Shown in pieces: positions 91-18,240 of a DNA stretch of 29,872 nucleotides. The notes under the pieces are model-generated. The model searched no databases. It saw only the letters and a program-made list of their open reading frames with translations, and was not told the DNA's origin. Each line of letters opens with the position of its first letter. Position 1 is the stretch's first letter. Origin of the DNA: an uncultured Azospirillum sp. (GTDB taxonomy: Bacteria; Pseudomonadota; Alphaproteobacteria; RF32; CAG-239). The position numbers were made by a program, and so were the translations under genes. The stretch spans positions 1-29,872 of the forward strand of contig CAYXBH010000002.1 of NCBI GenBank assembly GCA_964463185.1, given 5' to 3'.

Positions 91-95
91 GCTTT

Positions 96-1970: not shown

Positions 1971-2169
1971 GTATATTGCGTCCTGTGTATATTATGTTCC
2001 TATTTACTTACTAAACCAAGTCCGTAAACATATTGTATTAAAAATTAAAAAAGATTATCATAAATATAACCGTTTTCTTAATATATGCAATCGCAAAATA
2101 TTAGTGTTGAAAAGTTTTTTTTAGTATGCTAATTTTGCGGCAACATAAAATATTTTGAGGAAAAAAATA

Positions 2170-2928: not shown

Positions 2929-2952
2929 CAGTTTTTCTATAAAGGATATAAA

Positions 2953-3291
2953 ATGAGTACGGTTTTATTAGTTATCCATCTGCTGGTTGCCATCTTTCTG
3001 GTTGCCCTGATTTTGATGCAACGTTCCGGCGGCGGCGCCCTCAGTGGGCTCGGCGGCGGCTCGGGTGCGGGCAATTTTATGACCGCCCGCGGAACCGGCA
3101 ACCTGCTGACCCGTCTAACCGCGATTATGGCAACGCTGTTCTTTTTGACCAGTTTGTCGCTCTCTCTGTATTATAAAGATCACACCAATACGGAAAGCCG
3201 TTCCATTTTGGACGCGCCGGCTGTAGAAACCCAGGCTCCGGCTCAGCCGGCAGCTCCGGCAGTTCCCAACGCGCCGGTGGCAGAGCAGTAA
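2953..3291 (+). CDS. secG: Preprotein translocase subunit SecG
   Basis: Two hydrophobic segments around LMQRSGGGALSGLGGG..RG..NLLTRLT; Pro/Ala-rich tail; AAGGA RBS. Confidence 0.95.
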   Translation: MSTVLLVIHLLVAIFLVALILMQRSGGGALSGLGGGSGAGNFMTARGTGNLLTRLTAIMATLFFLTSLSLSLYYKDHTNTESRSILDAPAVETQAPAQPAAPAVPNAPVAEQ

Positions 3292-3306
3292 ATGAATGGG
3301 ACAATC

Positions 3307-3342
3307 AAAAAATCGGAGGCACCTTTTCACAAGGTGCCTCTG
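3307..3342. terminator. Strong hairpin between secG and pyrG (A-tract on its 5' side)
   Basis: CGGAGGCACCTT (3314-3325) / AAGGTGCCTCTG (3331-3342), 5-nt loop; U-tract only on the minus strand. Confidence 0.5.
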
Positions 3343-3393
3343 ACGCTTTAAAATCTGAAAAATTTTACCTTTTTATCAAAAGGGTCTTGCACA

Positions 3394-5037
3394 ATGACTA
3401 AAAATGAAAATAAGCAACCAAAATTCATCTTCATCACCGGCGGTGTTGTTTCTTCTTTGGGAAAAGGACTAGCATCCGCCTCTTTGGCCGCACTGCTGCA
3501 GGCGCGCGGTTTCAAAGTCCGGCTGCGCAAACTGGATCCATACTTAAATGTTGACCCCGGCACCATGAACCCATGCCAGCACGGGGAAGTTTTTGTTACC
3601 GACGACGGCACCGAGGCCGACCTTGACCTTGGGCATTACGAACGTTTTTCGGGCATTCCCGCCACCAAGCATGACAGCGTAACTTCCGGAAAAATCTATC
3701 AGCGGGTGCTCGACAAAGAGCGTCATGGCGATTATCTGGGGGCTACCATTCAGGTTATTCCTCATGTTACCAACGAAATCAAAGAATTCATCTTGTCGAA
3801 TTTAAGTGATGAAGATTTTGTATTATGCGAAATCGGCGGAACAGTCGGTGATATCGAGGGACAACCCTATCTGGAAACCATCCGCCAGTTGGCCTACGAA
3901 CTCGGACACGACAGAACCATGTTTGTCCACTTAACGCTTTTACCCTATATTCCGACTGCTGGCGAATTAAAAACAAAGCCAACCCAGCACTCAGTAAAAC
4001 AATTGCAGGAATACGGCATCCAACCAGATATTCTGCTGTGCCGTTCGCAAATTGAAATTCCGCAAAACGAAAAACGCAAAATTGCCTTGTTCTGCAACGT
4101 GCGGGAGAAGAGGGTGATTGCCGCGCTCGATGCCCGCTCCATATATCATGTGCCGATGGCCTATTCAAAAGAAGGGTTGGATGTGGAAGTCTGCAAGTAT
4201 TTCGGCCTTGATACCCCGGCTGCCGACCTAAGCAAGTGGGAACATATTGCAGATGTTATGGAAAATCCGGAAGGCGAAGTCAGGATTGCCGTTATTGGCA
4301 AATATCAACTGCTGGAAGCATATAAGTCTTTAAACGAAGCCCTGACTCACGGCGGCATAGCCAACCATTTCAAAATTAAAATCAAATGGATTGACGCCGA
4401 AGATGTGGAAAAAACCGGCGCAGCCGCTTATTTGTCCGATGTCAGTGGTATCCTGGTGCCGGGCGGTTTCGGCAGCCGCGGAACCGAAGGGAAAATCGCC
4501 GCCGCCCGCTATGCCCGCGAAAACAACATTCCCTACTTTGGTATCTGTTTCGGTATGCAGATGGCGGTTATTGAAACCATGCGCAACGTTGCTGGCATCA
4601 AAAACGCCAGCAGTACAGAACTGGATCCCAACTGCGAGGCCGTTGTTGGTCTGATGACGGAATGGGATAAAGACGGTGCCAGAGAAATCCGGAGCAAAAA
4701 CGGGGATCTCGGCGGCACCATGCGTCTTGGCGCATATCCCTGCCTACTGACACCAGGCTCAAAAGCCGCCGATATTTACGGGACGGAAAAAATCAACGAA
4801 AGACATCGCCATCGTTACGAAGTCAATATTAAATATGAACCATTGCTTCAAAAGGCAGGGATGCAGATTACCGGCAAATCGCCGGACGGGAAACTTCCGG
4901 AAATAGTCGAACGGCCGGAGCATCCGTGGTTTGTCGGAGTACAATTCCATCCGGAGCTGAAATCAAAACCGTTTGCACCACATCCGTTATTTGTAGCTTT
5001 TATAAAAGCAGCAATTGACAACAGCCGCCTTTTATAA
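3394..5037 (+). CDS. pyrG: CTP synthase
   Basis: [31 protein letters not shown] (catalytic Cys) and QFHPE motifs; 547 aa. Confidence 0.99.
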
Positions 5038-5075
5038 TTAAATACAACCCCTTGGAAGTTATAAAGAAGAAAAAC

Positions 5076-5618
5076 ATGAAAAACAGAATAATTATAACCT
5101 TTTTGGCGACAATATTTGCATTTTCGGCAGAAGCCGGCGTTATAAAAGATTTTTTCAGCGAAGCCTGGGAAAACTCAAAATACGCTTTTAACTGCGGCAG
5201 ACACGATCTTTATGTGCCTGTCCGCACTTGGCATAACCGTCTGTTCTACGATGACGAGCATATCGACAAATACAACGAAGAACCCTGGGGTATCGGCTAT
5301 GGCCACAGTTTTTGGGAGGGCAATGAATGGCACGGCGTCTATGCCATGGTCTTCAAAGATTCCAACTTTCACCCGGAAACTATGATCGGCTACGCCTACC
5401 TCTACAATTGGGGACTGGATGATACCGGCGACTGGAAAGCCGGCGTTGGCTACACGTTGGGCGTTACCCAGAGGGAAGAATATTTATACATACCGGTTCC
5501 GCTACCGCTGCCGATTGCCGGCGTTTCATACAAGCAACTTTCCCTGCAAGCGACCTATGTTCCCGGCGTCAAAAACGACGGTAACGTTCTGTTTGCCTGG
5601 CTAAAATGGACATTCTGA
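5076..5618 (+). CDS. pagP: Lipid A palmitoyltransferase PagP (outer-membrane beta-barrel)
   Basis: Signal peptide (MKNRIII..SAEA); LYVP..TWHNR, NEEPWG.G.G, WHGVYAMVFKDS, TQR, ATYVPG..NDGNVLFAW..W.F; His33/Asp76/Ser77/Arg114 and Pro28/Pro50 equivalents present; ATG at 5076 preferred over TTG at 5052. Confidence 0.92.
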   Translation: MKNRIIITFLATIFAFSAEAGVIKDFFSEAWENSKYAFNCGRHDLYVPVRTWHNRLFYDDEHIDKYNEEPWGIGYGHSFWEGNEWHGVYAMVFKDSNFHPETMIGYAYLYNWGLDDTGDWKAGVGYTLGVTQREEYLYIPVPLPLPIAGVSYKQLSLQATYVPGVKNDGNVLFAWLKWTF

Positions 5619-5638
5619 CAAAAGATAAGGAAAAATAT

Positions 5639-6484
5639 ATGGAAGCACAAAAAACTATAAAAATCGACAATTTTGAAATTGGTAACCGGTTGCCACTGGC
5701 GATAATCGCCGGTCCCTGCCAGATTGAAAGCCGCCAGCATGCTATTGACATTGCCGGCGCCATGGTGGAGATAACCAAAGATCTCGGCATCAACTACATT
5801 TTCAAAGCTTCTTACGACAAAGCCAACCGTACTTCTCTCAAATCGCCCCGCGGCATCGGTATAGAGGAGGGAATGCACACCTTTGACGAAATTAAAAAGT
5901 TGTACGGATGCCCGATTCTGACCGATGTGCATGAAAAGGAACAATGTGCCGTTGTTGCCAAACACGTTGACATACTGCAAATTCCGGCTTTTCTATGCCG
6001 GCAGACCGACCTGGTCATCGCCGCCGCCCAAACAGGAAAAATCATCAATATCAAAAAAGGGCAGTTTCTGGCTCCCTGGGATATGAAAAATCTGGTCATG
6101 AAATCGGTAGACAGTGGCAACCCGAATGTCTGCATTACCGAACGCGGCACCAGTTTCGGCTACAACACGCTGATAACCGATATGCGTTCTTTTCCCAAAA
6201 TGGCCAAAGATACCGGCTGCCCAATCATTTTTGATGCCACCCATTCGGTGCAGCAGCCAGGCGGACTTGGCGGATGCTCCGGCGGACAAAGGGAATTTGC
6301 ACCGGTTCTGGCTCGTGCCGCTGCTGCTGTCGGCGTAGCTGCCGTATTTATGGAAACCCACGAAAATCCGGATAAAGCATTATCGGATGGCCCCAACTCC
6401 ATCGCCTTAAAAGATATGAAACGGGTGATTGGCGAGTTAATGGCTTATGACAAGATTACCAAAACCATCATTCACGACTATTAA
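5639..6484 (+). CDS. kdsA: KDO8P synthase (3-deoxy-D-manno-octulosonate 8-phosphate synthase), Cys-containing metal-dependent type
   Basis: IAGPCQIES, KASYDKANRTS, QIPAFLCRQTD, KKGQF, ERG, DATHSVQ and SDGPN motifs; AAGGA RBS upstream of ATG 5639. Confidence 0.97.
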   Translation: MEAQKTIKIDNFEIGNRLPLAIIAGPCQIESRQHAIDIAGAMVEITKDLGINYIFKASYDKANRTSLKSPRGIGIEEGMHTFDEIKKLYGCPILTDVHEKEQCAVVAKHVDILQIPAFLCRQTDLVIAAAQTGKIINIKKGQFLAPWDMKNLVMKSVDSGNPNVCITERGTSFGYNTLITDMRSFPKMAKDTGCPIIFDATHSVQQPGGLGGCSGGQREFAPVLARAAAAVGVAAVFMETHENPDKALSDGPNSIALKDMKRVIGELMAYDKITKTIIHDY

Positions 6485-6513
6485 CCGCAGAACTGGCGAA
6501 CTCGGATATAAAA

Positions 6514-7230
6514 ATGGAGTTTCGTGACGAGGGATATATTACCGCTGTCCGCCGCTACGGCGAAAATTCGTTGATTGTAAGCCTAATTTCAAAAGAACAT
6601 GGCTTAATCAGCGGTTTTGTCAAAGGCGGCAGCAGCCGGAAGAACATCGGCATATACCAAACCGGCAACCGGATCGGCTTTGATGCCTATGCTCGAATTG
6701 AAGAAAATATGCTCAGCCTAAAAACGGAACTGCTGATGCCATCAGCAGTCAATTTTATGTCATCGCCCGCCAAGCTGGCCGCTTTATCATCTCTGTGCTC
6801 GTTGTGCACAGCCTGCCTTCCAGAAAAAGAAAATTTAGAGTTGTTTTATAACCGGATAGACGATTTTTTTAATTTTATAAATAAAGAAAATTGGTTGACA
6901 TACTATTCTTTGTTTGAATTTTTTCTGCTTGATTATCTCGGTATCGGGCTTGACCTGAACGAATGTGCTGTAACCGGCAGCAAAGAAAACCTGGCCTATA
7001 TTTCCCCCAAAAGCGGCCGGGCGGTGTGCTGGGAGTCGGGAGCGCCGTATGCGATGCGGCTCTATTCATATCCGCATTTCATTGTGGATAAAAACGAATT
7101 TCCGTCGCCGTCTGAAATAGCAGATCTACTGAAAATGACCGAATTTTTCCTCAACAAAAATTTTTTTAAAGTTCACGGCTTGAAATTCCCCGAAAACCGT
7201 GCTAGTTTGCTGGAAAATCTGGGCCTATAA
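6514..7230 (+). CDS. recO: DNA repair protein RecO
   Basis: MEFRDEG.I..VRRYGEN; alphaproteobacterial C-terminal L..CAVTG....[11 protein letters not shown]; directly upstream of parC. Confidence 0.95.
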
Positions 7231-7238
7231 GGGAAACT

Positions 7239-9476
7239 ATGCAAGAAAACGAAGAAAAAATCAAAAACGTACAGCTTGCTGAAGAACTCAGCAAGCGTTA
7301 CCTGTCTTATGCCATGTCAACGATCGTATCACGTTCGCTGCCAGACGTCCGGGACGGCCTAAAACCTGTTCACCGTCGTCTGCTGTATGCCATGCGCCAG
7401 CTGCATCTCGACCCCAAATCGGGGTTCAAAAAATGCGCCCGCGTTGTCGGTGATGTCATCGGTAAATATCACCCCCACGGCGACAGCGCCGTTTACGGCG
7501 CCATGGCACGCCTGGCACAGGATTTTTCGGTGCGCTATCCGTTAGTGGACGGGCAGGGCAACTTCGGCAACATCGACGGCGACGGCCCTGCCGCCATGCG
7601 TTATACCGAAGCCAGACTGACAGAATTTGCCATTGCCCTGATGGAGGGGCTGAATGACAATGCCGTCGATTTTATGGATACCTACGATGGAGAAGAAAGC
7701 GAGCCAGTAGTTATGCCAGCCATGGTACCCAACCTTTTGTGCAACGGTTCAGCTGGTATCGCCGTCGGGATGGCCACCAATATTCCCCCGCATAACTTAA
7801 GCGAAGTCTGCGACGCACTTTTGTACCTGATTGACAATCCGGAATGCGACATCGAACCACTTGTCCGTCGGATAAAAGGCCCCGATTTCCCGACTGGCGG
7901 CTATATCATCGACAAGTTCGACAGCATTTTGGATACCTATCGCCAGGGCAAAGGAGTGTTCCGCATCCGTGCAAAATGGGAAAAGGAAGACCTCGGTCAT
8001 GGGCAATATCAGATTATCGTTACGGAAATTCCTTATATGGTTCCCAAAGCCAAGCTGGTTGAAAAAATAGCCTCTTTGCTTTTGGAAAAGAAAATCCCAC
8101 TTCTAAACGACATCCGAGATGAATCTGCACAAGACATAAGGATTGTACTGGAGCCTAAAAGCCGGCTGGTCGATGCCAATTTGCTGATGGAACATCTGTT
8201 TAAGCAGACCGAGCTCGAAAGCCGCTTTAACCTGAACATGAATGTCCTTGATTCTGACGGCGTACCACGGGTTATGTCAATCAAGGAAGTCTTGCGCGAA
8301 TTTTTAAATCACCGTCACAACGTTCTGCTTCGGCGGACAAATTACCGTTTGGATAAAATAAACTACCGGCTGGAAATCTTAAGCGGCTACCTGATTACAT
8401 ATCTCAACCTTGATCGCATCATCCAGATCATACGCGAAGAAGAAAACCCCAAATCCGTCATGATGACAGAGTTCAAACTGACGGAAAATCAGGCAGAGGC
8501 CATTCTTAACATGAAATTGCGCTCATTACGCAAACTGGAAGAAAGCCAGATACAAGAGGAATACGACGCTCTTTTGGAAGAAAAATCCGGTCTGGAAGAA
8601 CTGCTCGATAATGAAGGCAAAAGATGGCAGGCGATTGCTTCCGAAGTAAAACAAATTAAAGAAAAATTCGGCAAAAAAACGGCTCTCGGCCGCCGGCGAA
8701 CAGAGTTTTCAGAAGTTGCGGAAACAATCGACGTACCGCTGGAAGCCCTGATTGAAAAAGAGCCGATTACTGTGATTTTGTCGCAAAAAGGCTGGATCCG
8801 CTGCCTAAAAGGACACGTCAACTTAAATGACGAATTTAAATTCAAAGACGACGATGCCCTGCAGATAGTTCTCCATGCACAGACAACAGACAAACTGGTG
8901 GTTATGGACAGCTCAGGCAAGTTTTTCAACATTCCGGCCAATGAAATCCCAAGCGGAAGAGGATTCGGACAGCCGCTCAGGCTGATGATTGACATCGCCA
9001 ACAATGATTATGTCATTTCCGTGTTTGTATTTGAGCCGAAAGCAGCATATCTGATTGCCTCCTCCAAAGGTTACGGCTTTATTGTTGACGAAAACCATAT
9101 TATCGCCCAAACCCGCAATGGCCGCAAAATTATGAACGTGTCCGAAGGCGACAAGCCCGTCTGCTGCCTGAAAGTTAACGGCAATATGGTTGCCATCGTC
9201 GGCGACAACCGAAAACTGCTTGTTTTCAAAACGGAAGAAATTCCAACCCTAGCGCGGGGAAGGGGCGTTTGCCTGCAAAAATATAAAGAAGGCAGCCTTT
9301 CTGATATTCAGTTCTTTAACGAAACCGACGGTTTCAGTTTCAGCCGCAGTGGCGGCATCAGCACGGAAAAAGAACTGATAACCTGGCTCGGACATCGCGC
9401 CCAAGTTGGAAAACAAGTTCCTTTCGGCTTCCCGAAAAACAACAAATTTTTCACTAAAAACAACGAAGAAAAATAA
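7239..9476 (+). CDS. parC: DNA topoisomerase IV subunit A
   Basis: [21 protein letters not shown] and [10 protein letters not shown] motifs; 745 aa; no GyrA box seen; C-terminal [13 protein letters not shown] typical of alphaproteobacterial ParC. Confidence 0.93.
7551..7558 (+). other. KOPS motif (GGGCAGGG) pointing towards dif
   Basis: Exact GGGNAGGG on the + strand, left of dif. Confidence 0.5.
9257..9264 (+). other. KOPS motif (GGGAAGGG) pointing towards dif
   Basis: Exact GGGNAGGG on the + strand, left of dif. Confidence 0.5.
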
Positions 9477-9497
9477 CAAATCAAACAAAACATTAAA

Positions 9498-9522
9498 GAG
9501 TCCGAAATAATCGGGCTTTTTT
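9498..9522 (+). terminator. Rho-independent terminator after parC
   Basis: GAGTCCGA-aataa-TCGGGCTT stem (two G.U pairs) running into a T-tract, 21 nt after the stop. Confidence 0.7.
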
Positions 9523-9676
9523 GCTTTTGCCAAAAACCCCAAGTATGAAATTTCTTGACTAAATTAAAGCCGGATCAAATGTTAAACAAAAGAAAAAATT
9601 ATTCTATTCAACATGTTGTCGTTGACTTCTAAAGTAAAATCCGCCACAAGGGCATACCTTTTTACATTATATATAT

Positions 9677-9704
9677 TTGTCGCATAATCTATATTATGTA
9701 TAGT
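9677..9704 (+). other. dif site (XerC/XerD chromosome dimer resolution site)
   Basis: TTGTCGCATAA-TCTATA-TTATGTATAGT; 20/28 identical to E. coli dif GGTGCGCATAA-TGTATA-TTATGTTAAAT; intact ATAA-N6-TTAT core; lies in a 380-bp AT-rich gap between convergent genes; KOPS and gene polarity converge on it. Confidence 0.88.
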
Positions 9705-9857
9705 TTGATATCAAGACATAACATATTGACAATACAGCACAAAACAGCGTTCTTTTCATTTTGAAAGCGCGTTTTATGGAATTTTTTTTCACCAAATTAA
9801 CATTACATCCAAAACCAGTACAAAAAACTGCTGACATCGGTCGTCAACTACCGACCT

Positions 9858-11444
9858 TTAATTGGCTGAGGCTACCAATTTCTGTGTATATGCTTTGCAC
9901 GGCTTCCCGAAAATATCATCACGACTACCGGTTTCAACCATTTTACCGTCTTTCATAACCAAAATCCGATCCGACATAGCCCGCACGGCTCCCATATCAT
10001 GAGAGATAAAAATATAGCTTAAATTACGATTTTGCTGAATTTCCTGCAGCAATTTGATGATCTGCGCCTGAATGGTAACATCAAGCGCCGAAGTCGGCTC
10101 ATCCAAAATCAACAGCTTTGGCTCCAGAATAAGTGCCCTCGCAATAGCAATCCGTTGTCTTTGTCCGCCGGAAAATTCATGAGGATATTTCACCATATCA
10201 TCTTTATTTAGTCCAGTTTCTTCAATCACTTGCAACACTCTTTGCCGACGTTCTTCCCTTTTTAAATCCGGATAATGCACCAACAGTCCCTCACTGACAA
10301 TCTCTTCTATATTCATTCTGGGATTCAGCGAATTGTAGGGATCCTGAAAAACGATCTGAATATTTTTGCTGAGTTGCCGGCGCTCTTTGACATCTGCCAT
10401 GCCCAATTCCCTGTTTTCAAAAAATATTTTTCCTGTATATTTGTTCAAACCGACAATCGTCAATCCCAGCGTCGTCTTTCCAGAACCGGACTCTCCCACA
10501 ATGCCGAGCGTTGCTCCCTGTCGCAGCTCAAAAGAAATATCATCAACCGCTTTCAGCTTTTCAATCATCCTTCCCCATAGATTTTTCTTTATGGGAAAAG
10601 TAACCCGGATATGTTCCGCACGCAACAAAACATTACCAGATTTATTGTTGTTTTTCATCAACATATGAGCACTTATTAAATCTTTAGTATAACAGTGGAC
10701 AGGATGCTCGAATACCTGTCTGATTTCTCCCTGTTCAACAATTTTGCCGTCTTTCATCACCAATACCCGGTCAGCAATCCGACGGATAACATTCAGATCA
10801 TGGCTGATAAAAATAATGGACATGTTCAGCTTTTGTTTCAGACTGATCAATAGGTTAATAATCTGCTCCTGAACCGTTACGTCAAGGGCTGTTGTCGGTT
10901 CATCGGCAATCAATATATCCGGATTATTAGCAATCGCCATGGCTATCATAACCCGTTGCCTTTGCCCACCGGAAAGTTCAAACGGATAGGCTTTCATCCG
11001 TTTTTCCGCATTTTGGATACCTGTCAGTTTCAGCAGCCGCAAAACCTCTTTCCGAGCACTTTTCTCATCCAGTCTCCGGTGAAGTACCAAAGTTTCGGCT
11101 ATTTGTTTTTCAATGGTATGCAGCGGATTAAGTGATGACATCGGCTCTTGAAAAATGTAGGCTATTCGATTGCCACGGATTTTCCGGAAAAGATTGTCAC
11201 TCAACCCAACCAGTTCCTGCCTTTCAAATTTTATGGAACTTCTTTCTCCCAGACGAGCTTTAGGGAAAGGCAGCAGTCCTAGTAAAGCCAGTGCCGTTAC
11301 GGATTTTCCCGATCCCGATTCACCGACTATTCCAAGGACTTTCCCGGGATCAAGGACAAAAGAAATATTATCGACCGCCGTTTTTTCTTTTCCGTCGCCG
11401 TTTCTGAACATAATTGAGAGATTTTGAACCTCGAGCATACTCAT
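9858..11444 (-). CDS. yejF: Peptide ABC transporter dual ATP-binding protein, YejF-like
   Basis: Two ABC domains (GESGSGKS/LSGGQRQR/ADEPTTALD and GESGSGKT/FSGGQRQR/LDEPTSALD); ATG 11444 overlaps the yejE stop (ATGA). Confidence 0.85.
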   Translation of the reverse strand: MSMLEVQNLSIMFRNGDGKEKTAVDNISFVLDPGKVLGIVGESGSGKSVTALALLGLLPFPKARLGERSSIKFERQELVGLSDNLFRKIRGNRIAYIFQEPMSSLNPLHTIEKQIAETLVLHRRLDEKSARKEVLRLLKLTGIQNAEKRMKAYPFELSGGQRQRVMIAMAIANNPDILIADEPTTALDVTVQEQIINLLISLKQKLNMSIIFISHDLNVIRRIADRVLVMKDGKIVEQGEIRQVFEHPVHCYTKDLISAHMLMKNNNKSGNVLLRAEHIRVTFPIKKNLWGRMIEKLKAVDDISFELRQGATLGIVGESGSGKTTLGLTIVGLNKYTGKIFFENRELGMADVKERRQLSKNIQIVFQDPYNSLNPRMNIEEIVSEGLLVHYPDLKREERRQRVLQVIEETGLNKDDMVKYPHEFSGGQRQRIAIARALILEPKLLILDEPTSALDVTIQAQIIKLLQEIQQNRNLSYIFISHDMGAVRAMSDRILVMKDGKMVETGSRDDIFGKPCKAYTQKLVASAN

Positions 11445-12490
11445 CGACGGTTTTTCCTTGTATCCAGCATATCGCGCACACCCTCGCCCACAAAAATCAA
11501 CGCCATCAGCAAAACTGACAAAACGATAAATATGGAAATCCCGATCCAAGGGGCCTGCAAATTATCTTTTCCCTGCCGGACCAGATCACCGAGCGAAGGG
11601 TATTCATGCGAAAGCCCCAACCCCAGAAAGTCAAGAGCCGTCAGCGACACAATCGCTTCCGACATAATAAACGGGATAAAAGTGATGGCGGAAACAAGCG
11701 CATTGGGCATAATATGACGATAAATAATCCGCCAGTTTCCCACGCCCATGACACGCGCCGCCTTAACAAACTCAAAATTGCGCGTCCGCATAAACTCCGC
11801 TCGCACCATACCGGTCAGCGAAGTCCATGAGAAAAAAAGTAAAATAACCAGCAATGTCCAAAACGAAGGCAAAAAAATGCTGGAAACGATAATCAAAATA
11901 AAAAGCTGCGGCAAAGATTCCCATATTTCTATAAAACGTTGCATAAAAATATCCAATTTTCCACCGAAATACCCCTGCACAGCTCCTGCGGCAATCCCGA
12001 TGGCGGAAGAAATCAGTGTCAGCAGAAAAGCAAATGCTAAAGACAGCCGCAGCCCGTACAGAATCCGAGCCACAATATCCCTGCCCTCATCATCGGTTCC
12101 GAGCCAGTGGCGTTTTGAAGGCGCTGCCGGCGTCGGCATATCCATTTCCATATCAACCGTATTGAAAGAAAACGGAACCGGAGACATCAACATCCAGCCG
12201 TTTTGCTCTATATTATTTCGAATATATGGATCCGCATAATCGACCGGCGTCGGAAAATCACCGCCGAAATCCAAATCCGTATATGTAACGGCAAGCGGAA
12301 AATACCACTTACCACCATAGCGCACCAACAGAGGTTTATCATTGGCTAAAACATCGGCAAACAGACTGAGAAGTACCAAAAACAAAAGCAGAAAAAGAGA
12401 TCTCGTGGCACGTTTGTTTTGACAGAAAACATGCCATTCTGGCAATAATGTACCATTTTTCAAAAACTGATTTTCCTTATTCTGCCACAC
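11441..12490 (-). CDS. yejE: Peptide ABC transporter permease, YejE-like
   Basis: LANDKPL.VRY.G.WYFP, HWLGTDDEGRD..ARILYGLRLSL, GAVQGYFGG..D and RAEF.RTRN.EFV.AAR (EAA) motifs; GTG start overlaps the upstream gene's end by 14 nt. Confidence 0.88.
   Translation of the reverse strand: MWQNKENQFLKNGTLLPEWHVFCQNKRATRSLFLLLFLVLLSLFADVLANDKPLLVRYGGKWYFPLAVTYTDLDFGGDFPTPVDYADPYIRNNIEQNGWMLMSPVPFSFNTVDMEMDMPTPAAPSKRHWLGTDDEGRDIVARILYGLRLSLAFAFLLTLISSAIGIAAGAVQGYFGGKLDIFMQRFIEIWESLPQLFILIIVSSIFLPSFWTLLVILLFFSWTSLTGMVRAEFMRTRNFEFVKAARVMGVGNWRIIYRHIMPNALVSAITFIPFIMSEAIVSLTALDFLGLGLSHEYPSLGDLVRQGKDNLQAPWIGISIFIVLSVLLMALIFVGEGVRDMLDTRKNRR
12079..12086 (-). other. KOPS motif (GGGCAGGG on minus) pointing towards dif
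   Basis: CCCTGCCC on the + strand, right of dif. Confidence 0.5.
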
Positions 12491-14546
12491 CGTTTTTCTC
12501 GTCTGTTTCCGCTAAGTTTTCAACATGACTTTCGGCGACGGACTTAATCCCCTCCTCATTTACAGCCGGCAGTTCTTCGGTTTGCTCTTCCGTCGGCGCC
12601 AGCTGTGCAGTCGAAAGAGCGGTGTTGTCCGCTTTTTCAACCGGCATTTTGGAAGATGTCTGCAACAGCGGTTTTACCGGCTCACGATAATTGATTTTAC
12701 TCCATTCCTGATACCAGTGGTTAAACTCCTGCAAGGCTTCCTGTGCTACCTCGTTGGTAAATATAACGGCGTCAATATTTTCTTTTACCGATTTTTTCGT
12801 GCTTTTTGACAGAGTCGTACGGCCAAATTCCGTACATTTCGAACCATTTTCAAATTGATTATTTAAGATTTCCTCAACCGGACAGATAGATTTATTGATT
12901 ACAAACTGCCTGCTTCCGGGAAGTTTGATGGCTAGAGCAACCATTTGTCCGTTACGGAACCGGTCTGCCAGATTTTGGTTATTTGATCCGATCATGTCAT
13001 CAACACCAGATAAACCCTCGATAACAACGGTTGTCTTTTCCCCGTCAGGCATTTTCTGAATTTCCTGCATCATTTTTTCTAATTGACCGAACAGGCACAT
13101 AGTCTGTTTCAGGTAAGCATTTCTCTTTTCGAGGAAATTTTTATTTTCCGCCCAGGGCTGATTATATTTGGGCAACCATTCAGACAACGGTTTCAAACGG
13201 CACATATCATCATAAACGAACATATCCGACGGCAGGTCAAGATAAACAAAATACGCCTGAGCCCCTTTATCCTGCGCCATATCTGACAACATCAGATCAA
13301 GGTTCTTAAACGAATTGACAACATACAATTTCCGATAAGTAATGCCGACAACCGGGGTTTTAGACGTATTAAACATCGGTTTCACATACTCGTAAACCTG
13401 CTCCATAACAGTTTCGTTGGCAAACCAGCCGGTGCTTTCCAGCCACTGAACCAGCAGAATCTGAATTTTGTCGGCTATCGGCATTTGCACACCATCGATA
13501 TTAAACGGGAAATTTATTTTGCTAACGCAACGATTGACCGCAGTTTTGTTGTTCTGATTACACAGATGAATACCATGCGACTGATAGGCGCTGATTTTAT
13601 AGCCTTTTTCTTTCAACTTGTCATAAACGGCGTTATCCTTTAGATAAGCTTCATAATCTTCCCGATTCTTAAACTGCCAGTACCCTTCACGTAAAACTTG
13701 ATTTTGCAGAAACGATGTTTTTTCGTCCGCCGTATAGTTAAGGTTACGGGCAGCATTAATAAACTGGTTATTATTGGTTACATAAGCATTGGGATAAAGC
13801 TTAAATCCGTTCTTGGCATAAAAGCCAAACATAATTTTCATCAGTTGCTGTTTATAGAGTTCCGCCGCCTCATTTTTTTCCAAACTGTAAAGATAGCTGT
13901 ACGAAGGGGCATTAGCAATCATAATAGTTACCAGCTTTTCGCTTGGGGCAGCCGATTCCGCAGTCTGAACCAAAACCGGAGGCATATCCGGATCGGTTAT
14001 AAACTCGCTTTTATCCTGATTCTGGTTAATCAGGACGGCACCAAAACAAAAACAGGCAATCAGGACCAAAAGAGCCTTGATCCGTTTCGGAGTTAAGGCC
14101 AATATAGCAAAAACGACAACGCCCGCAGCCACAGCGCCATATGTGCCGGATCCACCGTCCCCGGTATTGAAATTGGCAAATTGAGAAACCATAGCAAACG
14201 TAAAGAAACCGGTTACAAGGGCTGTCAGAAGATAAAGTATAATACTCAAAAAAGACAGACAGAAATAAACAGCGAAAATAACAGCAGCCATTCCGATGAG
14301 CGTATAAAGAATTTCCGGCCGCAGATTATTAATACCCTGAAAAATATTAATCGGCCCCGAAGACGCAAACAAAACAAAGTTGATACCGAGCAGCGAAAAG
14401 GTAATCAGACAGCAGGCAAGATAGTTGAAAAGATAGCTCCATAATTTACTGGATCTTTTTTTCTTTTTCTGCGGAGTTGCCGTCCTTTTACGAAAAGGGG
14501 GTATTAGAGAACTGACTTCAATGGGATTAGCTGTAGCATCGCTCAT
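12477..14546 (-). CDS. Hypothetical inner-membrane protein: about 5 TM helices plus a large periplasmic alkaline-phosphatase/sulfatase-like domain with degenerate catalytic motifs
   Basis: 689 aa; basic N-tail, about 5 hydrophobic segments in residues ~38-173, then a soluble domain whose motif order (LVTIMIANAP / GFKLYPNAY / FVYLDLPSDMFVYD..C / YLKQTMCL..QL / TTVVIEGLSG) recalls sulfatase-like transferases; the ORF is solid, the fold call is inferred. Confidence 0.6.
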   Translation of the reverse strand: MSDATANPIEVSSLIPPFRKRTATPQKKKKRSSKLWSYLFNYLACCLITFSLLGINFVLFASSGPINIFQGINNLRPEILYTLIGMAAVIFAVYFCLSFLSIILYLLTALVTGFFTFAMVSQFANFNTGDGGSGTYGAVAAGVVVFAILALTPKRIKALLVLIACFCFGAVLINQNQDKSEFITDPDMPPVLVQTAESAAPSEKLVTIMIANAPSYSYLYSLEKNEAAELYKQQLMKIMFGFYAKNGFKLYPNAYVTNNNQFINAARNLNYTADEKTSFLQNQVLREGYWQFKNREDYEAYLKDNAVYDKLKEKGYKISAYQSHGIHLCNQNNKTAVNRCVSKINFPFNIDGVQMPIADKIQILLVQWLESTGWFANETVMEQVYEYVKPMFNTSKTPVVGITYRKLYVVNSFKNLDLMLSDMAQDKGAQAYFVYLDLPSDMFVYDDMCRLKPLSEWLPKYNQPWAENKNFLEKRNAYLKQTMCLFGQLEKMMQEIQKMPDGEKTTVVIEGLSGVDDMIGSNNQNLADRFRNGQMVALAIKLPGSRQFVINKSICPVEEILNNQFENGSKCTEFGRTTLSKSTKKSVKENIDAVIFTNEVAQEALQEFNHWYQEWSKINYREPVKPLLQTSSKMPVEKADNTALSTAQLAPTEEQTEELPAVNEEGIKSVAESHVENLAETDEKNGVAE

Positions 14547-14619
14547 ATCTCTGCTTCCTTATAATAAATGATTGGCAAAACATAAAACATATAAACATAT
14601 TAGCGCCGATATTTAAAGC

Positions 14620-14656
14620 AAAAAACCCCAAGATTGCACACAATCCTGAGGTTTTT
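14620..14656 (-). terminator. Rho-independent terminator after rpsD
   Basis: Minus-strand RNA AAAAACCUCAGGAUUG-UGUG-CAAUCUUGGGGUUUUUU, fully paired with G.U pairs, ends in a U-tract. Confidence 0.85.
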
Positions 14657-14679
14657 GTCCATTTTCGGATTTCTCCCCG

Positions 14680-15291
14680 TTATCTGGAGTAAAACTCGAT
14701 AACCAAGTTCGGCTCCATAACAGAAGCATACGGAACATCAGCAAACTTCGGAACAAAAGCATATTTTACGCTGAATTTTGAATCGGCCTCCAGATAAGAT
14801 GGAACTTCATGCAGGTTAGATTCCAGCGAAGCTGTTACCATCGGCATCTGCTGGGCTTTTTCCTTAACCGAAATAACATCTCCGGCTTTAACCATATAAG
14901 AAGGAATATTAACTTTTTTACCGTTGACCAGAATATGACCATGGTTAACAAACTGACGGGCGGCAAAAATGCTCGGTACAAATTTGGCTTTGAAAACCAG
15001 GTTGTCCAAACGGGATTCCAAAATACCAATCAGATTTTCAGCAGCATCGCCACGTCTTCTGATAGCTTCAACGTAATATTTATGGAACTGTTTTTCCGAT
15101 ACATTACCGTAATAGGTTTTCAATCTCTGTTTTGCCAACAGCTGTTCACCGTAGTCGGTCAGTTTTTTCTTGCGGGCGCCGTGCTGCCCCGGACCGTATT
15201 CACGTTTTAAAAACGGACTTTTCGGGTCACCCCACAAATTGGCGTGCAAACTGCGGTTTGTTTTTTTCTTTGCTTTTACAATACTCTTCAT
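14680..15291 (-). CDS. rpsD: 30S ribosomal protein S4
   Basis: [28 protein letters not shown] and [22 protein letters not shown] motifs; C-terminal VIEFYSR. Confidence 0.99.
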
Positions 15292-15402
15292 TAAATTCTT
15301 CCTTGAATTGATTTTATTTTATTGGATTATTGTCCCGGTAGTCCTTGAAAAAACAACTTTTCAGGCGGGGCATTTTCTGCCCGCATTTCCGGAAGTGAGG
15401 GC

Positions 15403-15431
15403 AATGTAATATAGTTTTTTAAAAAAATCAA
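15403..15431 (-). promoter_or_regulatory. Putative sigma70 promoter of rpsD
   Basis: -35 TTGATT (15431-15426), 17-bp spacer, -10 TACATT (15408-15403), GC-rich discriminator GCCCTC; implies a 5' UTR of about 105 nt. Confidence 0.6.
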
Positions 15432-15444
15432 GCATTATCTTAAC

Positions 15445-15468
15445 AAAAAAACTCCGGATATCCGGAGT
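15445..15468 (-). terminator. Rho-independent terminator of the recJ-DUF502 transcript
   Basis: Perfect 18-bp palindrome ACTCCGGATATCCGGAGT (15451-15468) followed by a U-run on the minus strand. Confidence 0.8.
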
Positions 15469-15724
15469 CTTTTATCCCGACGACACTTAAAAAGCGGCAA
15501 AGACTTCCTGAGTGGCAATTTCTTCCGGCAGTTGCCCAACAAAAAAATGCATCAACAAAACACGTTTCTGCCGCCAACCATCCACACAGCTCTTTCCCTG
15601 ACCGAAACGGGGAGCTGGCACAAAACATCTTTACCGTCGGCCACGGCACTCCGAAACACCCGTATAAATGAAAAGTATCCGCCGAACACAGATACCACAG
15701 TCCTTCAATCGGTTTTATCCGCCA

Positions 15725-16447
15725 TTAGGCTGCTGTCTTTATTTTCTTTTTTGCCTCTTCCGGTTCCACGATTCCGCCGGAAACAACAAATTTCAGTCCT
15801 TCTTCGACGCTCATATCCAAAAAGACCACGTCCTTCCTCGGTACAAAGATCAAAAAGCCCGAAGTTGGGTTCGGCGTAGTCGGAACAAATACATTCAGCA
15901 TATCCCGGCCGAGGATTTTTTTGACCTCGCCGCCCGTTTCCATGCTGACAAACCCAAGTATCCAAATCCCTTTGCGCGGATACTCAAACAAAACCACCTG
16001 ACGGAAAGCCCGACTTTTATCAGAAAGAAAAGTTTCAAAAATCTGTTTAAGCAGAGAATAGACGCTTGAAACAACCGGCATTTTTTTTACCATCCAGTCG
16101 CCGAGGCGGATAAAAAAACCACCGACGAAACCGGCCGCAAACATACCGATAACAATCATTGAAATAATCAGCACAATCACGCCCAATCCGGGAATTGTAA
16201 ACGGCAGATCGTAATAATAAGACTTAAACTGTGGCGGCAATAGCCTGCCAACCCAGACATCAATCCAGAGAATGATCTTATACGCCATGTAAAAAGTAAT
16301 CGAAACCGGTGCTGTTACCAGAATACCGGTAAAAAAATAAGCCCTCAATTTAGCGCCAAGTTTCATGAAAACACGTTGCTCTTTTTCCCGGATATTACGG
16401 ATGTTGATCGCCCTCACCCTGATTTTTTCTTTGTTTTTCTCAGACAT
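15725..16447 (-). CDS. DUF502 family membrane protein
   Basis: F.TGIL...P...TFY, IPGLG, ...P.VSSVY...KQI.ET, FRQVVLFEYPRKGIW..GF, VFVPTTPNPTSGF..FVP and MSVEEGLKFVVSGG motifs. Confidence 0.93.
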   Translation of the reverse strand: MSEKNKEKIRVRAINIRNIREKEQRVFMKLGAKLRAYFFTGILVTAPVSITFYMAYKIILWIDVWVGRLLPPQFKSYYYDLPFTIPGLGVIVLIISMIVIGMFAAGFVGGFFIRLGDWMVKKMPVVSSVYSLLKQIFETFLSDKSRAFRQVVLFEYPRKGIWILGFVSMETGGEVKKILGRDMLNVFVPTTPNPTSGFLIFVPRKDVVFLDMSVEEGLKFVVSGGIVEPEEAKKKIKTAA

Positions 16448-18215
16448 TTTTCCCTCTCATGGCATCTTCAATAACAAACTGAACCTGCGTCCGCCCCATC
16501 CAGGTATCTTTTCTCAAATTTCCGGCCAAATCAAAAAACTCTCCACGCCGAGCAAGCAGAGCTTTTCCCATCTCGGAATCCGCCGCCCGAAAGGCAATTG
16601 CTTTCAAACTACCACCGTCAAGCGCTCCCAATATGCACCGGATATGCCCGTTGCCGACAATCTCCGCTCTGATAATCCGCACGTTGGAGAGCAACAGCCG
16701 GGGTTCCGGATTCCCCGCACCGAACGGTTCGAGCAGAGAAAGGCTGTCGGCAAACTCAGCCGTTGCTGCCGGCAAGCTGATGCAACCATCTATTTCCAAC
16801 GTAGGCACGATCTTTTCTTTTCCCAGATATTGTTCTGCATATTCCCCGGCAAACCGGTGAAAAGCTTCCATATTTTCTTCTTTCAGCGAAAAGCCTGCCG
16901 CCATATTATGCCCGCCTCCTTTGGTAAGCAGGCCATTTTCTTTGGCTGCCATCACCAACGCACCGATATTAAGACCAGGCACCGACCGTGCGGATCCCTT
17001 AACTTCGTCAGCCTCAACAGACATCACAAAAGACGGCAGATTATAACGCTCTTTCAGTTTTCCTGCCACAATGCCAATAACCCCTTGGTGCCAACCTTTA
17101 CCATACACAAAAGCAATCGGATACGATTGTGGCGTCCCTTCCAGAATTTCAATAGCCTGCAACAGTACATAAGCTTCAATTTCTTTTCTCAGAGCATTAA
17201 AACCGTCCAGCTTTTCAGCAAAAACAGCCGCCTGTACATCATTTTCAGCACACAACAACTTTTCCCCCGTCGAGGCCTCACCGACCCGCCCGCCGGCATT
17301 AATCCGCGGTCCGAGAACATATCCCAGATGATAGCTCGACGGCGCTTCCGCCAAAGATGCCCGGTCAGACAGAGCTTTTAATCCGAAGTTCTGCCTTAAA
17401 GACATCACTTTTAACCCCTGGCGGACAAAAGCCCTGTTCAACCCGAGCAGAGGCACAACATCGCAGACCGTTCCAAGAGCGGTCAGATCCAGCCATTTTT
17501 TCAAATCCGGTTGCGGATGGTTGTCATAATAACCGCGCTTTCTCAGTTCTCTGTTAACGGCAACCACGGTTAAAAAGACAACACCGACCGCCGCCAGATA
17601 TTTCAGATACGGACAATCATCCGCTTCATCCAGCCTTTTGGGGTTAACAACCGCATACACGGCCGGCAGCCGCGTTTCTGCTTCGTGATGATCAAGCACG
17701 ATAACATCTATTCCCTTACTTTGTGCATATTCCAAAACATCAAAGGCCGTTGTGCCACAGTCGGTGGTGATCAGCAGCGTCGTACCGAGAGCGGCAAATT
17801 TGTCAACAGCGACCACACTCGGACCATACCCCTCTTCCCGCTCCGGGATATGGACGGGAACATCACAACCGGTTGATTTCAGAAACAATTTCAGCAAAGA
17901 AGAAGAAGTTGCGCCGTCAACATCATAGTCGCCGATAATGGCAATTTGCTCTTTTTTCTCGACCGCATCGGCTATCCTTTCCGCCGCCTTTTGCATATCC
18001 TTCAGACAGTTGGGATCAGGCATCAGATTTTGCAGTTTCGGGTACAAAAAATCTCTCGCCTCATCCGGCATAACACCGCGGGCAGAAAGGATGGATGCAA
18101 CCACCACAGGCAAACCGTAACGCATAGCGATCTGCTCGGCATCATTCTCGCAAAAAGGGGCAAATTTCCATATATTGCCCCCTAAAGATTTGCTGATCGG
18201 AAAATCATTGTCCAC
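16440..18215 (-). CDS. recJ: Single-stranded-DNA-specific exonuclease RecJ
   Basis: DHH-family motifs GDYDVDG, TDCG, DHH, GTVCD, PRINAGGR, GSARS and GGH.MAAG; GTG start with GGGGAG RBS. Confidence 0.97.
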   Translation of the reverse strand: MDNDFPISKSLGGNIWKFAPFCENDAEQIAMRYGLPVVVASILSARGVMPDEARDFLYPKLQNLMPDPNCLKDMQKAAERIADAVEKKEQIAIIGDYDVDGATSSSLLKLFLKSTGCDVPVHIPEREEGYGPSVVAVDKFAALGTTLLITTDCGTTAFDVLEYAQSKGIDVIVLDHHEAETRLPAVYAVVNPKRLDEADDCPYLKYLAAVGVVFLTVVAVNRELRKRGYYDNHPQPDLKKWLDLTALGTVCDVVPLLGLNRAFVRQGLKVMSLRQNFGLKALSDRASLAEAPSSYHLGYVLGPRINAGGRVGEASTGEKLLCAENDVQAAVFAEKLDGFNALRKEIEAYVLLQAIEILEGTPQSYPIAFVYGKGWHQGVIGIVAGKLKERYNLPSFVMSVEADEVKGSARSVPGLNIGALVMAAKENGLLTKGGGHNMAAGFSLKEENMEAFHRFAGEYAEQYLGKEKIVPTLEIDGCISLPAATAEFADSLSLLEPFGAGNPEPRLLLSNVRIIRAEIVGNGHIRCILGALDGGSLKAIAFRAADSEMGKALLARRGEFFDLAGNLRKDTWMGRTQVQFVIEDAMRGKNV

Positions 18216-18240
18216 GGCAACTCCCCGTCTGCTTTTCCTG

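What the first reader, a model, noticed from the sequence alone, without database searches (positions are those of the whole stretch)
9677..9704. dif site with converging KOPS and gene polarity: the chromosome terminus region
Seen: a 28-bp site 20/28 identical to E. coli dif. Two GGGNAGGG motifs lie on + to the left (7551, 9257) and five on - to the right (12079, 18607, 19466, 21898, 24003); I found none in the opposite orientation by eye, and two of them oppose their host gene's coding strand. 7/8 left genes and 13/15 right genes are transcribed towards the site. Known: FtsK reads KOPS to reach dif and activate XerCD. This element is invisible to the ORF track and fixes replichore polarity. 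The XerD arm (TTATGTATAGT) deviates from E. coli at 3 positions.
Basis: partly seen in the sequence, partly recalled or inferred. Interest (0 to 1): 0.7.

Follow-up and report, generated by a model that had tools for sequence, protein, structure and literature searches.

The report
Chromosome dimer-resolution (dif) site
The 28-base sequence is very probably the chromosome's dif site, where the XerC/XerD recombinases separate joined sister chromosomes in an uncultured gut alphaproteobacterium; it is correctly identified, but it is an expected feature of almost any bacterial chromosome.

Summary
Window 9677-9704 (TTGTCGCATAA-TCTATA-TTATGTATAGT) has classical dif anatomy. It is the best match in the 1.2-Mb assembly to a profile of five published dif sites. 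Across its family, 83 of 121 genomes sampled carry one copy and two carry two. Its arms are 99-100% conserved while the flanks are about 55% conserved.

In three relatives with long contigs, the cumulative G-C maximum lies 223-370 bp from the site. There GGGNAGGG points at the site 42:0, the most polar of 43,471 frequent octamer families, and the polarity does not depend on gene orientation. XerC-like, XerD-like and FtsK-gamma genes are present. Two unrelated phages with no detectable integrase sit integrated at this site in relatives.

Corrections:
- 20/28 identity to E. coli dif is chance-level on its own.
- In the window's own genome, GGGNAGGG polarity cannot be separated from the strong GC skew.
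- There, third-codon-position skew does not switch at the site but at least 34 kb to the left (contig order inferred from synteny).
- FtsK-gamma lacks the E. coli KOPS-reading Arg1300.

Verdict: a new member of a well-known kind. Interest is low to moderate.

The parts
9677..9687 (+). dif XerC-binding arm TTGTCGCATAA
   Evidence: Column identity 0.99 over 14 distinct relatives; 7-9 of 11 positions match published dif XerC arms.
9688..9693 (+). dif central hexamer TCTATA, where strand exchange is expected
   Evidence: Always 6 nt. It is the only part that varies among relatives (0.89; TGTATA, TCAATA, TTTATA, TGTACG, TATGTA, TCTATC). Position 13 is the most variable, as reported for Proteobacteria.
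9694..9704 (+). dif XerD-binding arm TTATGTATAGT
   Evidence: Column identity 1.00 over 14 relatives. 10/11 to the Bordetella and Geobacter arms, 9/11 to R. sphaeroides chr 1 and 8/11 to E. coli. Family-wide variation falls at positions 23 and 27.
9477..9857 (.). Convergent intergenic gap holding the site, between the parC stop and the stop of the ABC-transporter ATPase gene
   Evidence: ORF map. parC terminator-like hairpin at 9495-9521. The site is 25% GC against 45.8% for the genome. No Rfam family or tRNA overlaps it, and the hairpin potential is weak.
7551..7558 (+). GGGCAGGG, pointing right towards the site
9257..9264 (+). GGGAAGGG, pointing right towards the site
12079..12086 (-). GGGCAGGG, pointing left towards the site
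18607..18614 (-). GGGAAGGG, pointing left towards the site
19466..19473 (-). GGGTAGGG, pointing left towards the site, inside a + strand gene (DUF192)
21898..21905 (-). GGGAAGGG, pointing left towards the site
24003..24010 (-). GGGCAGGG, pointing left towards the site, inside a + strand gene (recG)
2155..9476 (+). Left gene block transcribed towards the site (tpiA, secG, pyrG, pagP, kdsA, recO, parC)
   Evidence: Pfam. The coding-strand GC3 skew is lagging-like, -0.12 to -0.30, except secG at +0.03.
9858..19035 (-). Right gene block transcribed towards the site (ABC ATPase, permease, orf689, rpsD, DUF502, recJ, OmpA-like)
   Evidence: Pfam. Raw skew is -0.08 to -0.21 and GC3 skew is -0.09 to -0.42 on the + strand.

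Best explanation
Window 9677-9704 is the chromosomal dif site of this gut alphaproteobacterium. XerC is expected to bind TTGTCGCATAA and XerD to bind TTATGTATAGT. The two recombinases would exchange strands across the 6-bp centre, turning chromosome dimers into monomers at cell division. The site lies at the junction of the two replichores, where gene orientation and GGGNAGGG polarity converge. FtsK, which carries a gamma domain here, is inferred to translocate towards the site guided by these polar words and to activate XerD. Shown: sequence anatomy, uniqueness, conservation pattern, position at the skew maximum in relatives, motif convergence, presence of the three proteins, and use of the site by integrated phages in relatives. 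Inferred: binding, cleavage, FtsK dependence, and that GGGNAGGG is what FtsK reads.
For: (1) Anatomy: 11+6+11 with inner dyad CATAA/TTATG, 25% GC, in a convergent intergenic gap. (2) It is the top hit in the whole assembly to a profile of five published dif sites (107 against 91 for the runner-up). It is the best single hit for four of the five and ties for E. coli. It matches published sites at 20-23 of 28 positions. (3) Conservation in 14 relatives: arms 0.99 and 1.00, centre 0.89, flanks 0.53-0.58. (4) Copy number: one perfect-arm copy in each of five relatives. Of 121 family genomes sampled, 85 have a match (19 of 23 genera); 83 of these have exactly one, and the reversed-pattern control gives 0. 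(5) In G001, G002 and G004 the skew sign flips at the site over arms of 40-100 kb, and the cumulative G-C maximum is 223-370 bp away. In a more distant genus (G126), where the site is about 89 kb from parC, the maximum is 12 kb away. (6) GGGNAGGG is 42:0 towards the site in those three relatives, with all six arms contributing. It ranks 1 of 43,471 octamer families with n>=25. Same-composition controls are 85% polar, giving P = 9e-4. Thirteen of the 42 motifs lie in genes transcribed away from the site. (7) Machinery in the same genome: FtsK gamma at 94.8 bits; a XerD-like protein at 320.6 bits to PRK00283, above its cut-off; a XerC-like protein at 293 bits to its best model, TIGR02224. (8) Natural recombination evidence: in L009 an 8.3-kb prophage, and in L016 a 4.4-kb Microviridae provirus, are each bracketed by the full site and a hybrid half-site. 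No integrase was detected in either.
Against: In the window's own contig the raw skew never turns positive (cumulative maximum at base 23). GC3 skew is negative on both sides of the site. On a synteny-ordered pseudo-scaffold it switches only between contigs C14 and C5, at least 34 kb to the left. So in this genome the site does not coincide with the compositional terminus. GGGNAGGG polarity in this genome (44:2 when tiles are oriented by skew; 9:0 | 0:8 on the pseudo-scaffold) is not separable from composition, because controls are 70-93% polar. FtsK-gamma has V, or L or S in relatives, where E. coli has the KOPS-reading R1300. Both recombinases score below the strict NCBIfam equivalog cut-offs. 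No biochemical evidence is available.
Confidence: 0.92

Rival explanations
1. The site is a genuine Xer target but not the point where replication ends. In this genome forks meet at least 34 kb to the left, so the site marks the segregation (KOPS and gene-orientation) junction rather than the replication terminus.
For: GC3 skew is lagging-like across C5 and the left arm of C2, although all genes there point at the site. An attenuated or displaced skew next to the site also appears in L011, and in G126 with a 12-kb offset. Published offsets between dif and the skew maximum range from 146 bp to about 100 kb, with 39 kb for E. coli.
Against: Contig order is inferred from synteny with three relatives, not assembled. 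In the three closest long-contig relatives the skew maximum is within 370 bp of the site. This reading refines the dif reading rather than replacing it.
Confidence: 0.55
2. The 28-mer is an attachment site (attB) used only by mobile elements, or the scar of one, rather than the host's dimer-resolution site.
For: Two relatives carry phages integrated exactly at the site.
Against: The integrated elements encode no detectable integrase, so they must depend on a host recombinase. The site is present in a single copy in genomes without any insert. It matches the dif consensus and lies at the skew maximum. Phages integrating at dif are a known consequence of a working XerCD/dif system (PMC3091885, PMC7062461).
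Confidence: 0.03
3. It is a chance AT-rich near-palindrome, an operator or a terminator in a convergent intergenic gap. The GGGNAGGG convergence is only a by-product of GC skew and gene orientation.
For: 20/28 identity to E. coli dif is reached by shuffled genomes. In this genome all G-rich control words are strongly polar. The step in raw skew at the site can be explained by the flip in gene orientation.
Against: Conservation is sharply confined to the 28-mer in otherwise diverged spacers. The site is kept when its neighbours change (L009; G126) and when it is inverted relative to both flanks (L018/G004). Hairpin potential is weak (z = -1.3) and no RNA family matches. In relatives GGGNAGGG ranks 1 of 43,471 families for polarity, independently of gene strand.
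Confidence: 0.03

Closest known systems
E. coli dif / XerCD / FtsK-KOPS system
   Same: A 28-bp site with two 11-bp arms, a 6-bp centre and the inner dyad CATAA/TTATG. It is single-copy and intergenic, and lies at the junction of GGGNAGGG polarity. The genome encodes XerC, XerD and an FtsK with a gamma winged-helix domain.
   Different: Only 20/28 positions are identical. The outer XerC arm differs, and the XerD arm differs at positions 24, 25 and 27. FtsK-gamma has V at the R1300 position. No function has been tested here.
Published proteobacterial dif sites closest in sequence (Bordetella pertussis, Rhodobacter sphaeroides chr 1, Geobacter sulfurreducens; Carnoy & Roten 2009, PMC2731167)
   Same: 23/28, 22/28 and 22/28 positions are identical. 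The XerD arm matches Bordetella and Geobacter at 10/11. R. sphaeroides chr 1 shares the T at position 25, where most Proteobacteria have A.
   Different: The host is a different, uncultured lineage of gut Alphaproteobacteria with genomes of 1.2-1.9 Mb (among the more complete assemblies sampled). The outer XerC arm TTGT is specific to this family.
IMEX elements at dif: Vibrio CTX/TLC phages and Microviridae proviruses of Bacteroidetes and Enterobacteria (PMC9226527, PMC3091885, PMC7062461)
   Same: In relatives, integrase-less phage genomes are bracketed by a full dif and a hybrid site. The hybrid keeps one host arm plus the centre.
   Different: These inserts are in relatives' loci (L009, L016), not in the window. 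One is a small phage with a P2-like double-jelly-roll coat protein and a HerA-type ATPase. The hosts are Alphaproteobacteria.

Membership tests
Classical XerCD-type chromosomal dif (criteria of Carnoy & Roten 2009, PMC2731167) | 28 nt: two 11-nt arms with inner dyad symmetry, separated by a 6-nt centre | tested here: met
   TTGTCGCATAA / TCTATA / TTATGTATAGT, with inner CATAA...TTATG. The centre is 6 nt in all relatives.
Classical XerCD-type chromosomal dif (criteria of Carnoy & Roten 2009, PMC2731167) | Homology to experimentally characterised or published dif sites | tested here: met
   20-23/28 to five published sites, and top genome-wide hit to their summed profile (107 against 91). The 20/28 match to E. 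coli alone is chance-level.
Classical XerCD-type chromosomal dif (criteria of Carnoy & Roten 2009, PMC2731167) | Single copy per chromosome | tested here: met
   There is no second copy in the 96.5%-complete assembly. Each of five relatives has one perfect-arm copy. Of the 85 family genomes with a match, 83 have exactly one.
Classical XerCD-type chromosomal dif (criteria of Carnoy & Roten 2009, PMC2731167) | Intergenic, with G+C below the genome average | tested here: met
   The site lies in the 381-bp gap between convergent genes. It is 25% GC against 45.8% for the genome.
Classical XerCD-type chromosomal dif (criteria of Carnoy & Roten 2009, PMC2731167) | [quoted passage not shown] | tested here: inconclusive
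   Met in relatives: 223-370 bp from the maximum in G001, G002 and G004, and 12 kb in G126. In the window's own genome the skew does not switch within the contig, and GC3 skew switches at least 34 kb away on a synteny pseudo-scaffold. That offset is within the published range.
Classical XerCD-type chromosomal dif (criteria of Carnoy & Roten 2009, PMC2731167) | Present in related strains and species | tested here: met
   Found in 14 parC-linked relatives, and in 19 of 23 genera of the family sampled.
Classical XerCD-type chromosomal dif (criteria of Carnoy & Roten 2009, PMC2731167) | Genome encodes both XerC-like and XerD-like recombinases | tested here: met
   C25:8767-9630 scores best against XerD-type models (PRK00283 320.6 bits, cut-off 279; TIGR02225 307 bits, below its 329.6 cut-off). 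C138:1150-2028 scores best against XerC (TIGR02224 293 bits, below its 335 cut-off).
Classical XerCD-type chromosomal dif (criteria of Carnoy & Roten 2009, PMC2731167) | XerCD binding, cleavage and FtsK-dependent dimer resolution at the site | not testable with these tools
   There is only indirect natural evidence: two integrase-less phages integrated at the site in relatives, each leaving a hybrid half-site.
KOPS (FtsK-orienting polar sequences) | Octamer highly skewed on both replichores, with the switch at dif | tested here: met
   Window: 2:0 | 0:5. Relatives: 8:0|0:7, 9:0|0:5 and 6:0|0:7. Rank 1 of 43,471 families.
KOPS (FtsK-orienting polar sequences) | Frequent (roughly 1 per 10-30 kb) and over-represented | tested here: met
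   1 per 9 kb in relatives (42 in 380 kb) and 1 per 13 kb in the window's genome (91 in 1.2 Mb). It is about 3.3 times the mean count of same-composition words (42 against 703/55). No Markov-model over-representation test was run.
KOPS (FtsK-orienting polar sequences) | Skew exceeds what GC skew and gene orientation give | tested here: met
   Relatives: 42:0 against 85% for controls, P = 9e-4. Thirteen of the 42 motifs lie in genes pointing away from the site. In the window's own genome the test is inconclusive: 96% against 70-93% for controls.
KOPS (FtsK-orienting polar sequences) | FtsK gamma domain with the E. coli KOPS-reading residues N1296, R1300, E1303, E1306 (PMC2533119, PMC2680272) | tested here: not met
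   The gamma domain is present (94.8 bits). The N, E and E equivalents are invariant, but R1300 is V in the window's genome and in G001, G002 and G005, L in G004 and S in G003.
KOPS (FtsK-orienting polar sequences) | Direct binding by FtsK-gamma and orientation of translocation | not testable with these tools
   Needs EMSA or triplex-displacement assays.

The most novel reading that the evidence does not exclude
In this lineage GGGNAGGG is the single most polar frequent octamer around dif, yet FtsK-gamma lacks the Arg1300 that E. coli uses to read KOPS (V, L or S instead, with an Arg at the neighbouring 1304 position). One possibility is that the gamma domain reads the same word through a different set of contacts. 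Another is that the word's polarity is maintained by something other than FtsK. In addition, in this reduced 1.2-Mb genome the junction of dif, KOPS and gene orientation appears separated by at least 34 kb from the mutational skew switch. That would mean one fork routinely runs through dif.
Probability: 0.3. Interest if true: 0.4.

Novelty: new member of a known kind. Interest (0 to 1): 0.3.

Why it matters
The site anchors the replichore map of a fragmented genome from an uncultured gut alphaproteobacterial family. It gives that family a dif consensus (TCGCATAA-N6-TTATGTATA-N) that can be used to orient contigs and to find phages integrated by the host Xer system; two such phages were seen here. 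It offers a natural test of how much of the E. coli FtsK-gamma/KOPS recognition code is needed to read GGGNAGGG. Beyond that, it is an expected housekeeping element.

Tried and rejected
1. A whole-genome cumulative GC-skew or KOPS-skew curve is impossible, because the assembly is 172 contigs with the largest at 33 kb.
2. Orienting 5-kb tiles by their own GC skew and then counting GGGNAGGG (44:2) is circular, and all same-composition controls were 70-93% polar, so I did not rely on it.
3. A de novo ranking of octamers against a mononucleotide expectation was dominated by codon- and gene-strand-driven words such as TNATTTGG. I replaced it with ranking by polarity at n>=25.
4. My first uniqueness scan used the window's own 28-mer as query, which is circular. 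I redid it with published dif sites.
5. The 'opposite oriC' test failed. In the family member with an 829-kb contig (G126), the site and dnaA lie on different contigs.
6. I considered that the 21-copy repeat near contig ends (19-20/28 to the site) might be extra dif-like sites. I rejected this because conservation runs on for more than 60 nt on one side only, which marks the end of an insertion-sequence-like element, and it lacks the CGCATAA and TTATG cores.
7. Rfam, tRNA and hairpin checks of the site found nothing.
8. One call failed on a mis-framed reference.
9. GGGNAGGG in the lagging-like block C5 + C2-left is 3:0, but controls there are 68% +, so this is not significant.

Full report
**What is there.** Window 9677-9704 reads TTGTCGCATAATCTATATTATGTATAGT. 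It lies in a 381-bp gap between the stop of parC (7239-9476, +) and the stop of an ABC-transporter ATPase gene (9858-11549, -). A terminator-like hairpin for parC sits at 9495-9521. The sequence splits into an 11-nt arm (TTGTCGCATAA), a 6-nt centre (TCTATA) and an 11-nt arm (TTATGTATAGT), with the inner dyad CATAA/TTATG. It is 25% G+C in a 45.8% G+C genome. Two of them, at 19466 and 24003, lie in + strand genes (DUF192 and recG). Gene polarity is as described.

**Whose genome.** The window is a whole contig (C2) of a 1.2-Mb, 172-contig assembly estimated 96.5% complete. ParC relatives show that it belongs to an uncultured gut alphaproteobacterial family. Records carry labels such as 'Proteobacteria bacterium CAG:495', 'Azospirillum sp. 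51_20' and 'Ca. Scatocola'. It is not a gammaproteobacterium.

It is not significant by itself. Mononucleotide shuffles of the genome reach 19-22, and C98:546 also scores 20/28. Independent queries single the site out. It is the top hit for four of five published dif sites: Bordetella 23/28, R. sphaeroides chr 1 22/28, Geobacter 22/28 and Agrobacterium 20/28. It is also the clear top hit to their summed profile, 107 against 91 for the runner-up.

**Conservation.** In 14 distinct relatives with ParC 82-90% identical, the same 28-mer is present. Column identity is 0.99 for the XerC arm, 0.89 for the centre and 1.00 for the XerD arm, against 0.53-0.58 in the 45-nt flanks. Most substitutions fall in the centre, chiefly at position 13, which Carnoy & Roten report as the most variable position in Proteobacteria. 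Each of five relatives has exactly one perfect-arm copy. In a sample of 121 family genomes, 85 (19 of 23 genera) have a match with at most one mismatch. Of these, 83 have exactly one copy, and the reversed-pattern control finds none. The arm variants fall at positions 23 and 27, among the positions the same paper describes as variable (23-24 and the outer ends 27-28).

**Position in relatives.** On three long contigs (G001, G002, G004), GC skew is positive for 45-100 kb on one side of the site and negative for 40-55 kb on the other. The cumulative G-C maximum lies 223, 370 and 267 bp from the site. In a more distant genus (G126), where the site is about 89 kb from parC, the flip is at the site's tile. 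There is a ~20-kb attenuated zone on one side, and the maximum lies 12 kb away.

**Polar motif.** I oriented those three relatives by position relative to the site, not by skew. GGGNAGGG is then 42:0 towards the site, with all six arms contributing, at about 1 per 9 kb; GGGCAGGG alone is 26:0. Same-composition control words pool at 85% (595:108), giving P = 9e-4. Among 43,471 one-N octamer families with at least 25 occurrences, GGGNAGGG ranks first for polarity. Thirteen of the 42 motifs lie in genes transcribed away from the site, and such genes hold 24% of the bases. The polarity is therefore not a by-product of gene orientation. In the window's own genome the counts agree: 2:0 | 0:5 in the window, and 9:0 | 0:8 on a synteny pseudo-scaffold. 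They cannot be separated from composition, because this genome's skew is stronger and control words are 87-93% polar.

**Machinery.**
- FtsK: the same assembly encodes an FtsK with a gamma domain (94.8 bits, C69).
- XerD-like: a recombinase on C25 scores 320.6 bits to PRK00283, above that cut-off, and 307 bits to TIGR02225, below its equivalog cut-off.
- XerC-like: a recombinase on C138 scores 293 bits to TIGR02224, its best model but below the cut-off.
- Recognition residues: the gamma domain aligns without gaps to the E. coli chains. Counting back from the aligned C-terminus places the published KOPS-reading residues N1296, R1300, E1303 and E1306 (PMC2533119; PMC2680272) on N, R, E, E in E. 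coli, so the register is self-consistent. That register rests on my recollection that six residues follow the aligned ...REVL in E. coli FtsK.
- What the lineage has: here the four positions read N, V, E, E. In relatives the second position is V, L or S, and the other three are invariant. The claim that FtsK reads GGGNAGGG in this lineage is an inference that lacks one expected residue.

**Natural evidence of recombination.** Two relatives carry inserts bracketed by the full site and a hybrid copy in direct orientation.
- L009: a half-site at 13170 has a perfect XerC arm, centre and TT, then diverges. It lies 8.3 kb from the full site at 21436. The insert encodes a replication initiator, a HerA/FtsK-type packaging ATPase, a P2-like double-jelly-roll coat protein, a tail-collar-domain protein and an endolysin.
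- L016: the full site is at 13022. A copy with a variant XerC arm but identical centre and XerD arm (TAGTCGTATACTCTATATTATGTATAGT) lies at 17454. The pair brackets a 4.4-kb Microviridae provirus with a major capsid protein (599 bits), a pilot protein and a rolling-circle initiator.

No integrase was detected in either insert. This is the known IMEX pattern (PMC3091885, PMC7062461, PMC9226527). It implies that host Xer recombinases act on this 28-mer in vivo in the lineage.

**The complication in this genome.** Within contig C2 the raw skew never turns positive, and the cumulative maximum is at base 23. Third-codon-position skew on the + strand is negative on both sides of the site. On the left, tpiA, pyrG, pagP, kdsA, recO and parC read -0.12 to -0.30. 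On the right, values are -0.09 to -0.42 whatever the gene strand. The step in raw skew at about 9.7 kb, from -0.03 to -0.14, can therefore be explained by the flip in gene orientation alone.

I mapped the genome's contigs onto the relatives' terminus contigs. All three references give the order C26, C14, (gap), C5, C2, C53, C112, C11, C144, with consistent orientations. On that pseudo-scaffold the far-left contigs are clearly leading-like (raw +0.09 to +0.21; GC3 mostly +0.24 to +0.35). C5 plus the left arm of C2, about 34 kb in all, has raw skew near 0 and GC3 of about 0 to -0.25. Everything to the right is negative.

So in this genome the mutational skew switch appears to lie at least 34 kb to the parC side of the site, while gene orientation and GGGNAGGG polarity switch at the site. 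The nearest relatives show a weaker version of the same effect on the parC side, and L011 shows it on the other side. An offset of this size is within the published range of 146 bp to about 100 kb, with 39 kb for E. coli. 'Terminus region' therefore stands, but the site is not the compositional switch point here. The contig order is inferred, not assembled.

**Rivals.**
- A chance palindrome, an operator or a terminator is excluded. Conservation is confined to the 28-mer. The site persists when its neighbours change or when it is inverted relative to collinear flanks. Hairpin potential is weak (z = -1.3), and no RNA family matches.
- A phage-only attachment site is unlikely. The inserts lack detectable integrases, and most genomes carry the bare site at the skew maximum.
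- A 21-copy repeat near contig ends resembles the site at 19-20/28, but it is the end of an insertion-sequence-like element, not a dif-like site.

**Comparison and verdict.** This is a classical XerCD-type dif, as defined by Carnoy & Roten (PMC2731167). Every criterion testable here is met, except that proximity to the skew maximum is shown in relatives and not in the window's own fragmented genome. Recombination itself is untested. dif sites are expected in nearly all bacteria that have XerCD and have been predicted genome-wide for years, so this is a new member of a known kind. The more interesting by-products are:
- the FtsK-gamma lineage without Arg1300 in genomes where GGGNAGGG is the most polar octamer;
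- the apparent separation of dif from the mutational skew switch;
- inversion of the site relative to both flanks in some relatives;
- two unrelated integrase-less phages using the site.

Interest 0.3.

Noticed in passing
L009:13170-21463: An 8.3-kb prophage with no detectable integrase is integrated at dif, bracketed by a half-site (XerC arm + centre, 13170) and the full site (21436). It encodes a replication initiator, a HerA/FtsK-type packaging ATPase, a P2-like double-jelly-roll coat protein, a tail-collar-domain protein and an endolysin. This insert is why the site lies 9 kb from parC in that genome.
   Followed up: partly
L016:13022-17481: A 4.4-kb Microviridae-type provirus (major capsid protein 599 bits, DNA pilot protein, rolling-circle initiator; no integrase detected) lies between the full dif (13022) and a hybrid copy with a variant XerC arm (17454, TAGTCGTATACTCTATATTATGTATAGT).
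   Followed up: partly
L018 (= G004:C22:44680), also L017 and L011: The 28-mer is inverted relative to parC. In G004 both flanks are collinear with the window (single-orientation synteny from -25 to +12 kb), so only a short segment carrying dif is flipped. No mechanism was found.
   Followed up: partly
G000 contigs C5 and C2:1-9676 (window 1-9676): A block of about 34 kb has all its genes pointing at dif, but its third-codon-position GC skew looks like that of lagging-strand genes (about 0 to -0.25). This suggests that the fork-meeting point in this 1.2-Mb genome lies at least 34 kb from dif. Contig order is from synteny only.
   Followed up: partly
G000:C69:713-1000 (L001), and L111-L115: The FtsK gamma recognition helix reads GYNRAAVLIERME. 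The E. coli KOPS-reading R1300 is V here (L or S in some relatives), while the N1296, E1303 and E1306 equivalents are invariant. An Arg occupies the position of E. coli Q1304.
   Followed up: partly
G000, 21 places, e.g. C125:3318, C28:12221(-), C8:15942(-), C18:2931; not in the window: The end of a multi-copy insertion-sequence-like element (…CACT|CTGTTCCATAAAACATAGTATTTATAGACTATAAAAATATTTCACCC…) sits about 20-50 nt from many contig ends. It probably explains why the assembly is so fragmented. Two kinds of interior sequence suggest the two ends of one element.
   Followed up: partly
G001, G002 and G004 terminus contigs (L092-L110): Other strongly polar octamer families relative to dif remain unexplained: TNAAAGGG 27:0, GANTTACG 32:1 and TNATTTGG 79:5.
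   Followed up: no
window 7239-9704 and relatives L006-L085: The close linkage of parC to dif holds only in the nearest relatives (ParC at least 82% identical). In relatives at or below about 80% identity there is no site within 10 kb of parC, and in G126 they are about 89 kb apart. The linkage is a clade-level accident of gene order, not a conserved coupling.
   Followed up: partly
G000:C88:561: This is the second-best hit to the published-dif profile (AATACTGATAATGAATATTTTGTAAGGT; 22/28 to Bordetella dif). It lacks the TTATG core. I did not examine it further.
   Followed up: no
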